Shown here in pieces: positions 24,044 to 31,263 of a DNA stretch of 64,000 nt. The stretch is from an uncultured Gammaproteobacteria bacterium (GTDB lineage Bacteria > Patescibacteriota > Microgenomatia > PFEM01 > JAPLYW01). The notes beneath the pieces are model-generated. The model saw only the letters and a program-made list of their open reading frames with translations. It searched no databases and was not told the DNA's origin. Made by a program: the position numbers and the translations under genes. The DNA is taken from assembly GCA_965230945.1 (NCBI GenBank), contig OZ246397.1, positions 539,925-603,924 of the forward strand, read 5' to 3'. Numbering within the stretch: position 1 is the first letter of the stretch; each line of letters begins with the position of its first letter.

Positions 24044-24883
24044 ATGAAAAGAATTGTTATTCATATTAATCCAGATTTGGATGCTGTTGCTTCAGTTTGG
24101 CTTATCAAAAGATTTTTGCCTCGTTGGGAAAAAGCAGAAATAGGTTTCTGTCAGGCAGAAACAACTTTTGATGGGAAGCCAGTAGATAGTGATCCTGATA
24201 TTTTACATCTTGATGTTGGTTTAGGTAAACTTGATCATCATCAAACTGATTGTTTTACTTCGGCAGTTAAACTCACTTTAGATTTCATCTTAGAAAAAAG
24301 AAAAGGACAAGAGTTGAGCCCTTTAGATTTAGAGGCTTTAGAGCTCATGGTAGAAACGATTAATGAAATTGATAATGCGCGAGATTTGAATTGGCCGGAA
24401 GTTAAAAAAGAGCGTTATGATTTTTATCTCCATTCTATTTTAAGTGGTTTAAGAAGAATGGGGAAAACTGATATTGAACTAGTTGAATACGGTTTTTTAG
24501 GGCTAAATGCTGTTTTTAAGAATCTTAAAGCAGGGATAAAAGCCAAAGAAGAAATAAAAAAGGGGATTGAATTTCAGACTCCTTGGGGAAAGGCAATTGC
24601 CTTGGAGACCGGTAATGAATTATTTTTATGGGAAAGTGAAAAAGCTGGTTATTATTTAGTGGTTAAAAAGGATCCTGACGATGGTGATGTTAGAATTTAT
24701 GCTCGTTATGATAGTGATGTTGATTTGAAAAATGTTTATCAAAAATTTAAAGAGATGGATAAAGAATCTGATTGGTTTTTACACGCTTCCGGTAAGTTGT
24801 TATTAAATGGATCTCGGGTTAAAAAGATGAAACCAACAAAGTTAAGTTTAGAGCAAGTAATTGGGGTGTTGAAAAATGGTTGA
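24044..24883 (+). CDS. DHH-family phosphoesterase-like protein
   Basis: HINPDLDAVAS (DHH motif I), HLDVG, KLDHHQ (motif III); no DHHA1 GGGH seen. ATG 24044 is preferred over TTG 24026. Confidence 0.45.
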   Translation: MKRIVIHINPDLDAVASVWLIKRFLPRWEKAEIGFCQAETTFDGKPVDSDPDILHLDVGLGKLDHHQTDCFTSAVKLTLDFILEKRKGQELSPLDLEALELMVETINEIDNARDLNWPEVKKERYDFYLHSILSGLRRMGKTDIELVEYGFLGLNAVFKNLKAGIKAKEEIKKGIEFQTPWGKAIALETGNELFLWESEKAGYYLVVKKDPDDGDVRIYARYDSDVDLKNVYQKFKEMDKESDWFLHASGKLLLNGSRVKKMKPTKLSLEQVIGVLKNG

Positions 24884-25199
24884 TTGTATTTTTTGTCAAA
24901 TTGCTCAAAAAAAGATACCAGCAGAGATTGTTTATGAAGATAAAAAGATCATTGCTTTTAATGATGTTAACCCTAAAGCACCTGTCCATATCTTAATTAT
25001 TCCTAAGAAACATATTAAAGATTTTATTAGTTCTGGAAAATTCTTTCCTAAGATTTTAAAAGTTGCTAAAGACTTAATTAAAAAGTATAATTTAGATAGG
25101 AATGGTTATAGATTAGTAGTCAATGGCAGGAGTGCAGCGCTTGTCGATCATTTACATTTACATCTTTTAGGAAAAATAACTGTTGATAGGAATGTTTAG
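24876..25199 (+). CDS. HIT (histidine triad) family nucleotide hydrolase
   Basis: CIFCQI zinc-like start, AFNDVNPKAPVHILIIPKKH, HLHLHLLG triad. The C-terminal half (NGRSAALVDHLHLHLLGK) is off-consensus. Confidence 0.85.
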   Translation: MVDCIFCQIAQKKIPAEIVYEDKKIIAFNDVNPKAPVHILIIPKKHIKDFISSGKFFPKILKVAKDLIKKYNLDRNGYRLVVNGRSAALVDHLHLHLLGKITVDRNV

Positions 25200-25236
25200 G
25201 GGAAGTTATTCTAATAGGGTAAATTATTTTTAAGTA

Positions 25237-25307
25237 CGGGGCGTAGCTCAAAATAGAGCAGCGTACTTGGTGTACGATGTATAGTGGTTTAAATCCATTC
25301 GCCCCGA
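25237..25307 (+). tRNA. Aberrant tRNA-Pro(UGG)-like gene, 71 nt, no encoded CCA
   Basis: Hand-folded cloverleaf. Acceptor CGGGGCG/CGCCCCG with C1:G72 and A73 (bacterial tRNA-Pro identity). D arm GCTC-AAAATA-GAGC (no G18G19). Anticodon arm GCGTA-CTTGGTG-TACGA (anticodon TGG at 25268-25270, U at position 37, 27:43 mismatch). T arm AGTGG-TTTAAAT-CCATT (no C56). Confidence 0.65.
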
Positions 25308-25343
25308 CAAATTTAAAGAGATTAAGAAATAATATGATTTTCT

Positions 25344-28997: not shown

Positions 28998-29912
28998 ATG
29001 GATTTTTTAAAAAAGGGAGACACTATTGGGGTGGTTGCTCCTGGCTCGCCAGTGCCTAAAAAAAATATAAAAAAGGGAGTTAATGTTCTTAGTAATATGG
29101 GCTTTAATGTAAAATTAGGTAAGCATATTTTTAGTATTACTGGCTATACGGCAGGAATTGCAAAAGATCGTGCTAATGATATTAATAGGTTTTTTTCTGA
29201 TTCTCAGATTAAAGCGATAATTGCTGCTCGTGGTGGTTATAATTGCAATCAGATCTTACCATTTTTAGATTATGGACTTATTAAAAAAAACCCAAAGATT
29301 TTCTTAGGTCTTAGTGATGTAACTGCAGTGTTAAATGCTATTGTTTTGAAATCGAATGTTATAACATTTCATGGCCCAGTTCTTTTAATGATAGGGGGTG
29401 GAAGAGATGGTAAAGTATTCTCTAAGTATTCCAAAGAAAATTTTGAAAAAATACTTATGAATGAAAAGAAAAGGTTTATTAATGTAGTTAATGCCTTTGA
29501 TAATTGGATTGTTTTAAATAAAGGAAAAGCTGTAGGCAAACTTTTTGGCGGGAACCTCTCTTCTTTAATAAGTATTATTGGTACATCATATGAACCAAAT
29601 TGGAAAAATGCGATTCTAATGTGGGAAACGCTGGAAGAAAAATTAGAAATGATAGATCAGATGTTAACACATCTGAGATTAGCTGGAATTTTTGATAAAA
29701 TTAATGGTATGATGGTAGGTAAGTTTGTTGATACTAAACAGGGAAGAGATACAGAGATTATTAAAATGATTTTAGAACAATGCAGGGGATATGATTTTCC
29801 GATAATTTATGGGGTTGATTTTGGCCATACTAACGAAAATTTAATATTACCTATAGGTGGGGAAATTAGTTTTAATACAGAAGAAGAATTTCTTAAGATT
29901 ATTAAATATTAA
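28998..29912 (+). CDS. S66 peptidase: LD-carboxypeptidase LdcA / microcin C immunity MccF family
   Basis: GDTIGVVAPGSPV, RANDINRFFSDSQIKAIIAARGGYNCNQ, GLSDVTAV (nucleophile Ser), WETLEE, VDFGHTNEN (His). ATG 28998 lies 2 nt after the upstream stop. Confidence 0.8.
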   Translation: MDFLKKGDTIGVVAPGSPVPKKNIKKGVNVLSNMGFNVKLGKHIFSITGYTAGIAKDRANDINRFFSDSQIKAIIAARGGYNCNQILPFLDYGLIKKNPKIFLGLSDVTAVLNAIVLKSNVITFHGPVLLMIGGGRDGKVFSKYSKENFEKILMNEKKRFINVVNAFDNWIVLNKGKAVGKLFGGNLSSLISIIGTSYEPNWKNAILMWETLEEKLEMIDQMLTHLRLAGIFDKINGMMVGKFVDTKQGRDTEIIKMILEQCRGYDFPIIYGVDFGHTNENLILPIGGEISFNTEEEFLKIIKY

Positions 29913-29923
29913 ATTAGAAATTT

Positions 29924-31057
29924 ATGGGGCCTTATCAGGCGAAGCCAGGCGGTGTTATTTCTTATTTAGGCAATAAGATTTATCCTCCAGTTGAGGATGT
30001 ATTAGCTGTTTCTTGGCCACCAAAAGATTTAGTAGACAGAGTTGGATCTATTTATCGAGATAAGAAGTGGTACCACCTGCATAAAATTGATGCCTCAATT
30101 TTTACTGCTACGACACAATTCTTCCAAAGTATAAATGCTGATTGGGTTAATCTACCTCTTACCACTATGATGATTTCTTCTCCTGGTGAAGTTTATGCTG
30201 GACAAAGACTAAATTACACAACAGATACTTTACCTATGGAAATTCCTAATTGGTTTCATACTGGTAATAGAGTGTTTCTTTCAGAATCTTCACAGTTTTA
30301 TCTAGAATTAAGATTAATAATTGATAAGCTGGATAAAGTTTTTTCGATTTATAATTCTTTTAGGAAGGAAAAAGCTGATGCTACTCATTTATCAGAATTC
30401 CAACATGTTGAGTTTGAAGGACATGTTAATTTCAAAAATAACATAAATACTTTTATCAATTTGATTAATTATATTTTAAATTTTCTTTTACAAAATAACG
30501 AAGATAATTTATCTTTTTTTCTTGAAGATCAAGATATAAATGAATTATCTCGAAGCATGAAAAAGATTTTTAAGGTTCCGTTTGTCGAAATTTTAAAAGT
30601 TCTTTTTAAGGAAACTGGAAATAATAAATATAAAGAATTTTCAATGAAGAATTTTGGGTCGTGGGAAGAAATTTTTATTACTCAGATTTACGGCGGTAAT
30701 GTGTTAGCTCTTAATTTCCCTATGTTGCAGATCCCTTTTTATCATGAAATAAGTAAGAAAAAAGTTGGGGGTGTTCCTGTAGCTGAAAATGCAGATTTAA
30801 TACTTCAAGGATATAGAGAAACTGTTGGGAGTGGATTAAGAATTACAGATCCAAAGGCTTTGGCAGAAAAAGCAAAAATTTTTAATCTACCTATAGATGA
30901 CTATAAACCTTACCTTGAGACACGTAAGATGAAGAAATATAAAACATCGGCTGGTTTCGGTTTAGGTTGGCAAAGATTTACGCAATGGATTTTAAAATTA
31001 CCATATATTTGGGAAACAACCCCAACTCCTCGTGGACACACAAAACCAAGGCTTTAA
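29924..31057 (+). CDS. Stand-alone class IIb (Asn/AspRS-like) aaRS catalytic core without an anticodon-binding domain (377 aa)
   Basis: FLSESSQFYLELRL, SFRKEKADATHLSEFQHVEFEG (motif 2 FRxE...HLxEF), RETVGSGLRI, SAGFGLGWQRF (motif 3). No OB-fold N-terminus. Confidence 0.7.
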   Translation: MGPYQAKPGGVISYLGNKIYPPVEDVLAVSWPPKDLVDRVGSIYRDKKWYHLHKIDASIFTATTQFFQSINADWVNLPLTTMMISSPGEVYAGQRLNYTTDTLPMEIPNWFHTGNRVFLSESSQFYLELRLIIDKLDKVFSIYNSFRKEKADATHLSEFQHVEFEGHVNFKNNINTFINLINYILNFLLQNNEDNLSFFLEDQDINELSRSMKKIFKVPFVEILKVLFKETGNNKYKEFSMKNFGSWEEIFITQIYGGNVLALNFPMLQIPFYHEISKKKVGGVPVAENADLILQGYRETVGSGLRITDPKALAEKAKIFNLPIDDYKPYLETRKMKKYKTSAGFGLGWQRFTQWILKLPYIWETTPTPRGHTKPRL

Positions 31058-31101
31058 TTAAAAACAACATTTTTTATTACTTGATAATTTACAGAATATA
31101 A

Positions 31102-31263
31102 TCGATAATAAAAAAAGAGCTTTTAGGGAAAATAGTTTTAAAAATTAAAGAAATTGCTAAAGAGAAAAAAATAGATAAAGGCTACAAGGTGCAAATTAAC
31201 TGCGGAAGAAAGGCGGGTCAAATAGTACCTCATTTGCATTTTCATTTGCTCGCTGGTTTTTAA
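31102..31263 (+). pseudogene. Displaced 3-prime fragment of a HIT family gene (no start codon)
   Basis: Manual read of the open frame after a TAA: SIIKKELLGKIVLKIKEIAKEKKIDKGYKVQINCGRKAGQIVPHLHFHLLAGF-stop. This is a near-consensus HIT C-terminal half (GYrvviNcG..aGQ.V.HlHfHlLgG). Confidence 0.6.

What the first reader, a model, noticed from the sequence alone, without database searches (positions are those of the whole stretch)
24876..31263. HIT gene and a displaced HIT 3-prime half bracket the tRNA/aaRS-paralog cassette
The intact HIT gene (24876-25199) has an off-consensus C-terminal half: GYRLVVNGRSAALVDHLHLHLLGK.

About 6 kb downstream lies a start-less open frame (31102-31263). It encodes a near-consensus HIT C-terminal half, ELLGKIVLKIKEIAKEKKIDKGYKVQINCGRKAGQIVPHLHFHLLAGF-stop, and sits directly before rpsU.

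The two copies share short nucleotide stretches (ttttaaaa...ttgctaaaga) at the equivalent position.

Inference: DNA was inserted or exchanged inside a HIT gene. The incoming segment supplied a surrogate 3-prime end, as integrative elements do, and pushed the native 3-prime end to the far side. This gives a right boundary for accessory block 2. No integrase is present inside the block.
Basis: partly seen in the sequence, partly recalled or inferred. Interest (0 to 1): 0.5.

Follow-up and report, generated by a model that had tools for sequence, protein, structure and literature searches.

The report
Synthetase cassette inserted inside a HIT gene
A 6-kb block carrying a proline tRNA, an archaeal-type prolyl-tRNA synthetase and four related enzymes sits inside a small HIT gene of an uncultured Microgenomates bacterium; it brought a substitute gene end, pushed the original end 6 kb downstream, and the cell's own bacterial-type synthetase was then deleted.

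Summary

- **Empty site:** Close relatives that lack the cassette (L034, L033; ~95% nt identity in the flanks) and a more distant one (L047-L050) carry one uninterrupted HIT gene between p285 and rpsU. Its first 47 codons match HIT1 (46/47 aa). Its remainder matches the start-less fragment.
- **Insert:** Both junctions fall at codon 47. The insert is window 25020-31080 (6,061 bp), with no target loss and at most 5 nt of overlap.
- **Surrogate end:** The substitute 3' half is not a copy of the native one. It is the 3' half of a different HIT type ("HIT-B"). In deeper relatives (L051, L043) HIT-B is a full-length gene at the same syntenic position, directly upstream of the same cassette.
- **Mobility:** No integrase, no att repeats and no viral copies were found.
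- **Most likely mechanism:** Recombination with the syntenic locus of a related lineage. The left join is homeologous, in the conserved PKKHI block. The right join is illegitimate.
- **New:** A 38-codon stub of a bacterial-type ProRS lies at 23920-24036. Cassette-free relatives have that gene intact, so a ProRS type switch was caught midway.

This is a well-resolved example of known processes, and of moderate interest.

The parts
23920..24036 (+). 5' stub (38 codons plus stop) of a deleted bacterial-type prolyl-tRNA synthetase, lying between RseP and p285
   Evidence: tblastn with the L047 bacterial ProRS: residues 1-35 match, 20/35 identical, E 6e-6. At nucleotide level 87% over 47 nt, E 7e-14. 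The ATG is kept. Cassette-free relatives L033, L047/48 and L001 have the full gene here.
24044..24883 (+). p285/p279, a conserved gene of unknown function whose stop overlaps the HIT start by 8 nt. It is the native upstream partner of HIT.
   Evidence: Gene calls in L030-L033. The same 8-nt overlap occurs in cassette-free L033 and L047 and in B-type L051. No PDB relative found.
24876..25019 (+). Native (A-type) 5' part of the HIT gene, codons 1-47/48
   Evidence: 97.2% nt identity to L034 and 95.1% to L033. 46/47 aa to L034 and 38/47 to L047, but only 26-28/47 to B-type L051/L043.
25020..31080 (+). The inserted block (6,061 bp; 3-6 nt at each junction are ambiguous)
   Evidence: Absent from L033, L034 and L047-50, whose sequences abut exactly across it. 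GC is 31.2% against 35.6% for the window.
25020..25199 (+). Surrogate 3' end: codons 48-107 of a B-type HIT gene, joined in frame
   Evidence: 69% aa identity to the C-half of full-length HIT-B in L051, and 57% to L043. It shares their 2-aa deletion and the GK/R-x-x-V/I-x-R tail. dN/dS against L025 is 0.30 at dS about 0.8.
25237..25307 (+). tRNA-Pro(UGG) with C1-G72, A73 and an unusual U37; the first element of the cassette
   Evidence: Rfam RF00005, 46.2 bits against a gathering score of 29. ARAGORN misses it. It is conserved upstream of ProRS1 in L025, L035, L036, L038, L052 and further metagenome contigs.
25344..26792 (+). ProRS1, an archaeal/eukaryote-like prolyl-tRNA synthetase
   Evidence: NCBIfam TIGR00408, 526 bits against a cut-off of 437. 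Pfam tRNA-synt_2b + HGTP_anticodon + ProRS-C_1.
26801..27571 (+). p256, a very divergent paralog with only the ProRS-like class II catalytic core
   Evidence: Pfam tRNA-synt_2b E 2e-4; TIGR00408 E 1e-5, far below the cut-off.
27568..28995 (+). ProRS2, a full-length but divergent ProRS paralog
   Evidence: TIGR00408, 208 bits against a cut-off of 437. About 28 relatives found, all on uncultured-bacterium contigs.
28977..29912 (+). S66 peptidase, closer to MccF than to LdcA
   Evidence: Pfam S66 N and C domains. PDB MccF and MccF-like chains score E 1e-39 to 1e-42; LD-carboxypeptidases score 1e-20 to 1e-27.
29924..31057 (+). AsnRS/AspRS-like catalytic core without an anticodon-binding domain; the last gene of the insert
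   Evidence: Pfam tRNA-synt_2 E 4e-25. NCBIfam asnS and asparagine synthetase A hits are below their cut-offs. PDB AsnRS E 7e-16.
31081..31116 (+). remA: the first 12 codons of the displaced A-type HIT 3' part. Old and altered, with a +1 frameshift in the A7 run 31110-31116. It contains the promoter-like TTGATA-17-GATAAT at 31081-31109.
   Evidence: The best local match to the intact gene falls exactly at gene nt 140-174, p about 0.006. Identity is 74-75% to L034/L033, which are identical to each other here. L025 shares the window's state at 8 of the 10 differences. Promoter-like site.
31117..31263 (+). remB/C: the remainder of the displaced A-type HIT 3' part. It is undecayed, open to its native stop, and has no start codon.
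   Evidence: 31191-31263 is 98.6% identical to L034. The aa stretch KELLGKIVLKIKEIAKEKKIDKG is 21/23 identical to the distant A-type L047. dN/dS against L034 is 0.22.
31321..31949 (+). rpsU-yqeY, the conserved downstream partners of HIT
   Evidence: Pfam. The HIT-(rpsU)-yqeY order recurs across Patescibacteria loci.

Best explanation
**Shown.**
- The chromosome of this Microgenomates bacterium once had the order RseP - bacterial-type ProRS - p285 - HIT(A-type) - rpsU - yqeY. Its close relatives L033 and L034, and the more distant L047, still have it.
- A 6.06-kb block now sits inside the HIT gene at codon 47. It consists of codons 48-107 of a different HIT type (HIT-B), a tRNA-Pro(UGG), an archaeal-type ProRS, two ProRS paralogs, an MccF-like hydrolase and an AsnRS-like core.
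- The join is in frame. HIT1 is therefore an A/B chimera, and it has since evolved under purifying selection.
- The native 3' part (codon 47 to the stop) lies orphaned before rpsU.
- The resident bacterial-type ProRS has been cut down to a 38-codon stub.

**Inferred.**
- The block is not a self-mobile element. It is the corresponding stretch of the syntenic locus of a related lineage ('B-type': RseP - p285 - HIT-B - tRNA - cassette - rpsU - yqeY, as in L051 and L043).
- The left join was a homeologous crossover in the PKKHI block (CCN AAA AAR CAT ATT), the most conserved nucleotide stretch shared by A- and B-type HIT genes.
- The right join was illegitimate, at the same point. This is the pattern expected from homology-facilitated illegitimate recombination, or from repair of a break in HIT copied from the foreign template.
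- The hybrid allele is older than this genome. L025 (80% nt identity) has the same two junctions. The hybrid allele has since been exchanged by ordinary homologous recombination with cassette-free chromosomes. That would explain why, in the window, the first 36 nt of the orphan look old and L025-like, while the rest and both flanks look like freshly functional L034-type sequence.
- Once the archaeal-type ProRS with its own tRNA was in place, the bacterial ProRS became dispensable and was deleted.
For: **Empty sites.** Sequences abut exactly in L034, L033 and L047-50.

**Chimera.** The N-half is 46/47 identical to the A-type and only 26-28/47 to the B-type. The C-half is 69% identical to the B-type L051 and about 40% to the A-type.

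**A donor-like arrangement exists.** An intact HIT-B sits at the same syntenic place in L051 (p285 52% identical, with no HIT-A remnant) and in L043.

**Crossover position.** The switch falls in the conserved nucleotide block.

**No sign of self-mobility.**
- No recombinase gene in the insert, nor in window 14876-35199.
- None next to the cassette in L025, L035, L036, L038, L045 or L051.
- No end repeats.
- No copies in viral contigs.

**Older, shared allele.** L025 has the same junctions, and its remA shares 8 of the window's 10 differences from the intact gene.

**Mosaic orphan.** Identity to L034 is 75% in remA, 82% in remB and 98.6% in remC.

**Selection.** dN/dS of the chimera is 0.19 (N-half) and 0.30 (C-half); of the orphan, 0.22.

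**ProRS switch.** The bacterial ProRS stub is at 23920-24036, and the gene is intact in the cassette-free relatives. L045 carries both ProRS types side by side, which is the needed intermediate state.

**Composition.** The insert is at 31.2% GC against 35.6%.
Against: - Both junctions coincide at one codon with no loss of target DNA. A site-specific recombinase or a break-repair event predicts this directly. Classical homology-facilitated illegitimate recombination usually deletes some recipient DNA.
- The cassette also occurs in unrelated contexts without any HIT piece (L035, L036, L038, L052). It therefore moves or is reshuffled by some means not identified here.
- The direction of later exchange cannot be fixed. 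The cassette may have entered an A-type genome, or A-type flanks may have overwritten a cassette-bearing genome.
- Only 64 kb of this genome was available, so a second ProRS elsewhere cannot be excluded.
- All relatives are short metagenome contigs.
Confidence: 0.62

Rival explanations
1. The block is, or was, a site-specific integrative element of the e14/icd kind. It targets the HIT gene at the PKKHI codons and carries a replacement 3' end. Its integrase has been lost or acts in trans.
For: - The insertion is precise and in frame, with no target loss and both junctions at one codon.
- The native 3' end is displaced, and empty sites exist in relatives.
- GC is lower in the block.
- A tRNA gene sits at the left end of the block.
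- The cassette is found in several other genomic contexts.
- A possible degenerate copy of AAAAAACAT lies at 31060-31070.
Against: - No integrase, excisionase or any other mobility gene was found in the block, within about 10 kb of it, or beside any of six other cassette copies.
- There is no att-like direct repeat longer than 5 nt.
- The surrogate end is only about 40% identical to the native end. It is instead the 3' half of an intact gene at the same syntenic position in L051 and L043.
- Cassette copies elsewhere carry no HIT piece.
- The AAAACAACAT motif is absent from L025's right junction.
- A fresh integration would leave a native-looking remA, but remA is L025-like.
Confidence: 0.2
2. 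The ancestor had two complete HIT genes, HIT-B before the cassette and HIT-A after it. L033/L034 are then deletion recombinants (B N-half joined to A C-half) that lost the cassette. The window merely lost the 5' half of HIT-A.
For: - HIT directly upstream of (rpsU-)yqeY is widespread, and HIT-B upstream of the cassette is old. A two-HIT stage is therefore conceivable.
- L045 and L042 have a HIT downstream of a shorter cassette.
- Deletion between paralogs is known to make chimeras (PMC13626634).
Against: - The truncation point of the window's HIT-A would have to coincide to the nucleotide with the crossover point in L033/L034.
- The shared N-half is A-type, not B-type: 38/47 identical to the distant cassette-free L047 against 26-28/47 to L051/L043.
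- L047, with the same uninterrupted gene, is as distant from the window as L025 is.
- The B-type locus L051 has no HIT-A remnant.
- The HIT downstream in L045/L042 is a third, unrelated subtype.
Confidence: 0.07
3. The fragment is a chance open frame, or the cassette-free contigs are assembly artefacts.
For: The relatives are short, low-coverage metagenome contigs.
Against: - Pfam HIT E 1.7e-10 for the fragment.
- Three identical assemblies of the window's locus come from different samples.
- The cassette-free arrangement was recovered independently from ENA, Logan and JGI data, in at least six contigs of three sequence types.
- The junction sequence of L034/L033 does not exist in the window-type genome (remA differs at 10 positions), so no assembly collapse could create it.
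Confidence: 0.01

Closest known systems
Cryptic prophage e14 (and phage 21) in the E. coli icd gene, with the icdC 3' pseudogene
   Same: The insertion lies inside a protein-coding gene. The incoming DNA supplies the 3' end, so the gene stays intact. The native C-terminal fragment is left as a pseudogene at the far end. Strains with the empty site have the undivided gene (PMC13626634).
   Different: - e14 carries its own integrase and excises.
- Its surrogate end is nearly identical to the native one and shares an att core.
- Here there is no recombinase and no repeat, and the surrogate half is only about 40% identical.
- Here the surrogate replaces 56% of the protein (60 of 107 codons), and the cargo is translation genes.
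[quoted passage not shown]
   Same: Foreign DNA is anchored by one stretch of homology (here the PKKHI block of HIT) and joined at the other end without homology. No mobility genes are needed.
   Different: It is usually accompanied by deletion of recipient DNA next to the anchor. Here nothing was lost. Competence of this organism was not examined. The process is inferred from sequence only.
Horizontal replacement of bacterial-type ProRS by archaeal/eukaryote-like ProRS in some bacteria (general knowledge of aaRS evolution; no paper read here)
   Same: One ProRS type (TIGR00409) gives way to the other (TIGR00408) in a bacterial lineage.
   Different: Here the states before (L033, L047), during (L045, both genes) and after (window, with a stub; L025 and L051, no trace) are all seen at one locus. 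The incoming synthetase also arrives with its own tRNA and four paralogous or accessory genes.
MccF and HIT-type (MccH-like) hydrolases of aminoacyl-nucleotide antibiotics (own knowledge; PDB molecule names)
   Same: The cassette's S66 protein is most similar to MccF chains, and a HIT gene flanks the cassette. Both enzyme classes act on aminoacyl-adenylate-like compounds.
   Different: No microcin-type biosynthesis genes were seen. Catalytic residues and activity were not examined. The HIT-rpsU-yqeY neighbourhood exists without the cassette.

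Membership tests
Integrative element inserted in a gene with a surrogate 3' end (e14/icd type) | The target gene's reading frame is completed by incoming DNA | tested here: met
   HIT1 is an in-frame A/B chimera. dN/dS of the surrogate half is 0.30.
Integrative element inserted in a gene with a surrogate 3' end (e14/icd type) | The native 3' fragment is displaced to the far end, and relatives have an empty site | tested here: met
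   Fragment at 31081-31263. L033, L034 and L047-50 are uninterrupted.
Integrative element inserted in a gene with a surrogate 3' end (e14/icd type) | An integrase or recombinase is encoded in or next to the element | tested here: not met
   Pfam and NCBIfam assign all insert ORFs to aaRS-like or S66 families. There is none in window 14876-35199, and none beside six other cassette copies.
Integrative element inserted in a gene with a surrogate 3' end (e14/icd type) | A direct repeat (att core) at both ends | tested here: not met
   There is only a 3-6 nt ambiguous overlap, TT(G/A)A(A/T). The repeat search found nothing linking the ends.
Homology-facilitated illegitimate recombination product | One junction lies inside sequence shared by donor and recipient | tested here: met
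   The switch is at CCN AAA AAR CAT ATT, which is conserved in A-type and B-type HIT genes.
Homology-facilitated illegitimate recombination product | The other junction has no homology (microhomology at most) | tested here: inconclusive
   31058-31080 has no counterpart in the intact gene, and L051's spacer shows no HIT similarity (p 0.8). The junction is old and altered, so the original microhomology cannot be read.
Homology-facilitated illegitimate recombination product | A donor with the required arrangement exists | tested here: met
   L051 has RseP-p276-HIT-B-tRNA-cassette-rpsU-yqeY. L043 has p285-HIT-B-tRNA-ProRS1.
Homology-facilitated illegitimate recombination product | DNA uptake or recombination machinery in the organism, and an observed event | not testable with these tools
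   Only 64 kb of the genome is available, and there is no experiment.
HIT superfamily (Pfam PF01230) | Profile match above the gathering score, and the His triad HxHxHxx | tested here: met
   HIT1 scores 66.6 bits and the fragment 41.8 bits, against 21.5. The triads are HLHLHLL and HLHFHLL.
HinT / purine nucleoside phosphoramidase equivalogs (NCBIfam NF007965, NF045834) | Score above the curated cut-off | tested here: not met
   HIT1 scores 67 and 69 bits against cut-offs of 206 and 130. Intact A-type P0007 scores 90 and 79 bits. Only superfamily-level naming is justified.
Prolyl-tRNA synthetase, archaeal/eukaryote-like (TIGR00408) | Score above the equivalog cut-off of 437 bits | tested here: met
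   ProRS1 scores 526 bits. ProRS2 (208 bits) and p256 (25 bits) fail and are paralogs.
Prolyl-tRNA synthetase, bacterial type (TIGR00409 / PRK09194) | A full-length match | tested here: not met
   The window keeps only residues 1-35. L047 (587 bits), L045 (438 bits) and L016 (444 bits) have full genes.
tRNA (Rfam RF00005) | Covariance-model score above 29 bits, and a cloverleaf | tested here: met
   46.2 bits, full-length model match, anticodon UGG. Orthologs in other loci score 42-47 bits.
MccF (microcin C immunity serine peptidase, S66) | Closer to MccF than to LdcA; a catalytic Ser-His-Glu triad; activity on aminoacyl-nucleotides | tested here: inconclusive
   The sequence ranking favours MccF and MccF-like chains, at 1e-39 to 1e-42 against 1e-20 to 1e-27. 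Catalytic residues and activity were not examined.

The most novel reading that the evidence does not exclude
The block may not be merely a spare ProRS. It could be a self-contained module that works on aminoacyl-adenylates or on a dedicated tRNA. Its parts are a tRNA-Pro with U37 in place of the usual purine (G37 in tRNA-Pro, from general knowledge), a ProRS, two ProRS paralogs, an AsnRS-like core, an MccF-like hydrolase and a HIT-B hydrolase. L045 adds a ThrRS-like core and a SufS-like enzyme. Such a module could make, proofread or detoxify an aminoacyl-nucleotide or a tRNA-bound intermediate. On this reading, the HIT-B 3' half travelled with the cassette because HIT-B is functionally tied to it, not just because it offered homology.
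Probability: 0.2. Interest if true: 0.75.

Novelty: new member of a known kind. Interest (0 to 1): 0.5.

Why it matters
**A resolved example of synthetase-type switching.** This locus shows how an essential translation gene can be swapped for a different evolutionary type in a tiny-genome bacterium. All the states are visible at one locus:
- before: L033 and L047;
- coexistence: L045;
- just after: this window, with both a HIT orphan and a ProRS stub;
- long after: L025 and L051.

**Gene-internal insertion without a mobile element.** A gene can survive an internal insertion by taking 56% of its coding sequence from a roughly 40%-identical homolog. Recombination between syntenic loci of diverged lineages can therefore mimic the footprint of an integrative element with no mobility genes present.

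**Practical use.** The result fixes the limits of the accessory block (25020-31080). It also flags a conserved six-part cassette of unknown function in Microgenomates.

Tried and rejected
**Searches that found nothing.**
- The metagenome scan with p285 alone returned only low-complexity pattern hits.
- A protein search with the 60-aa surrogate half alone found nothing usable. HIT-B relatives had to be found through the tRNA pattern and through ProRS2 contexts.
- ARAGORN does not call the cassette tRNA. Rfam does.
- Viral-contig scans for the tRNA and for ProRS2 were negative.

**att-like repeats.**
- None were found.
- A possible vestige of the core (AAAACAACAT at 31061-31070, against AAAAAACAT in the gene) is A-rich and absent from L025. 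I treat it as chance.

**Is remA just a B-type rpsU spacer?** L051's spacer shows no similarity to HIT-A or to the window's remnant (p 0.8 and 0.77). remA's best match to the intact gene is exactly in register (p 0.006). I reject this idea.

**Is L025's N-half itself an A/B mosaic with an earlier crossover?** Identities are 32-34/47 to A-type and 29-30/47 to B-type, which is not decisive.

**Strict mutual exclusion of the two ProRS types.** L045 carries both, so this is rejected.

**Promoter prediction.** The total number of promoter-like sites is not above chance in this AT-rich DNA (27 against 30 expected). The site in remA is a lead only.

Full report
**What is in the window**

All genes from 21.6 to 34 kb lie on the + strand. 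In order they are:
- tsf, frr and RseP (22719-23894);
- a 279-aa protein of unknown function, here called p285 (24044-24883);
- HIT1 (24876-25199);
- five genes: ProRS1, p256, ProRS2, an S66 peptidase and an AsnRS-like core;
- a start-less HIT-like frame (31102-31263);
- rpsU, yqeY, ybeY and dnaX.

Rfam finds a tRNA at 25237-25307 (46.2 bits). Its anticodon is UGG, with C1-G72, A73 and U37. ARAGORN misses it. Pfam confirms that HIT1 is a full HIT domain (E 3e-18). The fragment matches only profile positions 43-95 of 98 (E 1.7e-10). The two copies share 13/24 residues around the His triad. Their nucleotide similarity is weak (p about 0.005) and confined to codons for similar residues. No repeat links the two ends. 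The 'shared stretches' are coding homology, not a recombination scar.

**The decisive comparison**

A protein search with HIT1 returned two proteins, P0004 and P0007. Their first 47 residues are 45/47 and 46/47 identical to HIT1. Their remainder matches the fragment; GYKVQINCGRKAGQIVPHLHFHLLAGF is identical.

Their contigs (L033, L034) read p285 - HIT - rpsU - yqeY - ybeY - dnaX with no cassette. At nucleotide level:
- L034 nt 1-352 aligns to window 24668-25019 (94.9%), and nt 348-1291 to window 31081-32025 (95.3%).
- L033 does the same (88.0% and 94.1%).

So the insert is window 25020-31080 (6,061 bp). It lies at codon 47 (Ile of PKKHI), with no loss of target sequence and only 3-6 ambiguous bases.

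The displaced piece begins at 31081, not 31102. A +1 frameshift in the A7 run 31110-31116 produces the stop at 31099-31101 in the downstream frame. A more distant set of contigs (L047-L050; p285 60% and dnaX 75% identical) has the same uninterrupted arrangement.

The insert is the lowest-GC 6-kb stretch of the window (31.2% against 35.6%). GC3 is 0.19-0.23, against 0.28-0.33 in RseP, rpsU, yqeY and dnaX. However, p285 and the HIT 5' part are also low, so the left edge is not compositionally sharp.

**Where the surrogate half comes from**

The surrogate half is not a degraded copy of the native half.
- L051 reads RseP - p276 - HIT - tRNA - ProRS1 - p242 - ProRS2 - S66 - AsnRS-like - rpsU - yqeY. 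L043 reads p285 - HIT - tRNA - ProRS1.
- In both, a full-length HIT has the same 2-residue deletion and the same C-terminal tail. I call this type HIT-B.
- These genomes are deep relatives (p285 52% and 45% identical). Their HIT N-halves are also B-type.
- The window's N-half is 46/47 identical to L034 and 38/47 to L047, but only 26-28/47 to L051/L043.

HIT1 is thus a true A/B chimera. The switch lies in CCN AAA AAR CAT ATT, the best-conserved nucleotide block common to both types. The chimera is under purifying selection: dN/dS against L025 is 0.19 for the N-half and 0.30 for the surrogate half, at dS about 0.8. L051 shows no trace of a HIT-A remnant before rpsU (p 0.8).

**Age and later history**

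L025/L026 is 80% identical in nucleotides and collinear over 7.1 kb. It has the same cassette and the same two junctions. It keeps only the first 30-50 nt of the orphan before a deletion that runs to the rpsU spacer.

Within the window's orphan:
- The first 36 nt (remA) differ from L034/L033 at 10 positions. L034 and L033 are identical to each other in this stretch. L025 shares the window's state at 8 of those positions.
- The next stretch, 31117-31190, is 82% identical to L034. Its protein sequence is 21/23 identical to the distant A-type L047.
- The final stretch, 31191-31263, is 98.6% identical to L034.
- dN/dS of 31117-31260 against L034 is 0.22, so its differences arose under selection.

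Uniform decay cannot give ten changes in 36 nt and essentially none in the next 147 nt. I infer that the hybrid allele predates this genome. It has since been exchanged with cassette-free chromosomes by ordinary homologous recombination, with crossovers close to the heterology. Which partner was the recipient cannot be settled from these contigs.

remA contains TTGATA-17-GATAAT (31081-31109). The hexamers are identical in L025. In intact A-type genes the site reads TTGAAA-17-GATAAT. If this site drives rpsU-yqeY, that would explain why remA is retained in both lineages. The scan as a whole is not above chance, so this is a lead only.

**A second remnant**

In cassette-free relatives, the gene upstream of p285 is a bacterial-type ProRS:
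- L047, 558 aa with an editing domain, PRK09194 587 bits;
- L033, the C-terminal 75 aa at the contig edge;
- L001, further upstream.

In the window, the 131-nt gap between RseP and p285 holds MLYSKLFGKTIKAAPKKAEAISHQYLVKADFIINLLEV-stop (23920-24036). This is 20/35 identical to the N-terminus of the L047 enzyme. At nucleotide level it is 87% identical over 47 nt (E 7e-14). No other ProRS is present in the 64 kb.

ProRS1 passes the equivalog cut-off for the archaeal/eukaryote-like type (526 bits against 437). L045 carries both types at this locus: RseP - bacterial ProRS - SufS-like - ThrRS-like core - tRNA - ProRS1 - p256 - ProRS2 - HIT - yqeY. Coexistence is therefore viable.

The series is L033/L047, then L045, then the window, then L025/L051. 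It reads as a ProRS type switch, with the window caught shortly after loss of the old gene. This remains an inference until the whole genome is scanned.

**Mechanism**

The footprint is the one known from e14 in icd. There, the gene continues into the element and a C-terminal pseudogene, icdC, lies at the far end (PMC13626634). But the defining machinery is missing here:
- no recombinase in the insert, in window 14876-35199, or beside six other cassette copies;
- no att repeat;
- no viral copies;
- a surrogate end that belongs to an intact gene at the same syntenic position in other lineages.

I therefore favour recombination between syntenic loci of diverged lineages. One side was anchored in the PKKHI block and the other was joined illegitimately. 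This is homology-facilitated illegitimate recombination (references), or repair of a break in HIT copied from the foreign template. The break-repair version would explain why both joins sit at one codon.

That coincidence, and the presence of the cassette in unrelated contexts without any HIT piece (L035, L036, L038, L052), keep a site-specific element alive as a rival (about 0.2).

A two-HIT ancestor with deletion recombinants is unlikely (about 0.07). It needs two independent breakpoints to coincide to the nucleotide, and the shared N-half is A-type.

**Verdict**

- a corrected right boundary (31080/31081);
- a different likely mechanism;
- an added finding, the ProRS stub.

This is a clean, well-documented instance of known processes rather than a new kind of system. 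The conserved cassette itself remains functionally unexplained and is the more novel lead. Its parts are the tRNA-Pro with U37, ProRS, two ProRS paralogs, an MccF-like S66 and an AsnRS-like core without an anticodon domain.

Noticed in passing
window 23920-24036: A 38-codon stub of a bacterial-type prolyl-tRNA synthetase lies between RseP and p285. The full gene sits at this position in cassette-free relatives (L033, L047/48).
   Followed up: yes
window 25237-25307; also L025 about 2508-2578, L036 1962-2032, L038 3573-3643, L035 7697-7767, L052 about 117-187: The cassette tRNA-Pro(UGG) is atypical. It has U37 and G38 in all copies and a short D-loop. In the window it has A at the usual G19 position and U at C56, a possible compensating pair. 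One copy (L035) has C33. ARAGORN does not detect it.
   Followed up: partly
window 28977-29912: The S66 peptidase of the cassette is markedly closer to microcin-C immunity protein MccF and MccF-like chains (E 1e-39 to 1e-42) than to LD-carboxypeptidases (1e-20 to 1e-27). This is notable beside aaRS paralogs and a HIT hydrolase.
   Followed up: partly
L045 5800-13943 (minus strand); L042: A more distant genome carries the bacterial-type ProRS and the archaeal-type ProRS1 cassette side by side. A SufS-like desulfurase and a ThrRS-like catalytic-core paralog lie between them, and a third HIT subtype (138 aa, HAHIRII motif) lies after ProRS2. It has no S66 or AsnRS-like genes.
   Followed up: partly
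L035, L036, L038, L052, L044, L046: The same tRNA + five-gene cassette (62-80% aa identity) occurs in unrelated genomic contexts with no HIT piece on either side and no mobility gene nearby. How it relocates is unknown.
   Followed up: partly
window 24026-24043: The mechanical ORF for p285 starts at TTG 24026 and overlaps the end of the ProRS stub. Gene callers and relatives use ATG 24044 (279 aa). p285 has only a sub-threshold ChrB_C match and no PDB relative.
   Followed up: partly
window 31081-31109; L025 8316-8344: A promoter-like TTGATA-17-GATAAT lies inside the orphaned HIT piece, with both hexamers identical in L025 although the spacer has changed. Intact A-type genes have TTGAAA-17-GATAAT at the same place. 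It may be an internal promoter for rpsU-yqeY.
   Followed up: partly
L025 739-1305: L025 has a 188-aa P-loop protein between RseP and p285, where the window has the ProRS stub.
   Followed up: no
L001 5793-5874: The Microgenomates contig L001 has p285 followed directly by rpsU (80-nt spacer), with no HIT gene at all. HIT can therefore be lost from this position.
   Followed up: no
window 19290-19691: About 71% identical direct repeats offset by 135 nt (19290-19556 against 19425-19691) lie inside the 630-aa ORF upstream of rpsB. They showed up as BLAST self-hits.
   Followed up: no
L036 4317-5755: ProRS2 is split into two ORFs (344 + 136 aa) in L036. This may be a frameshift or a pseudogene in that lineage.
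   Followed up: no
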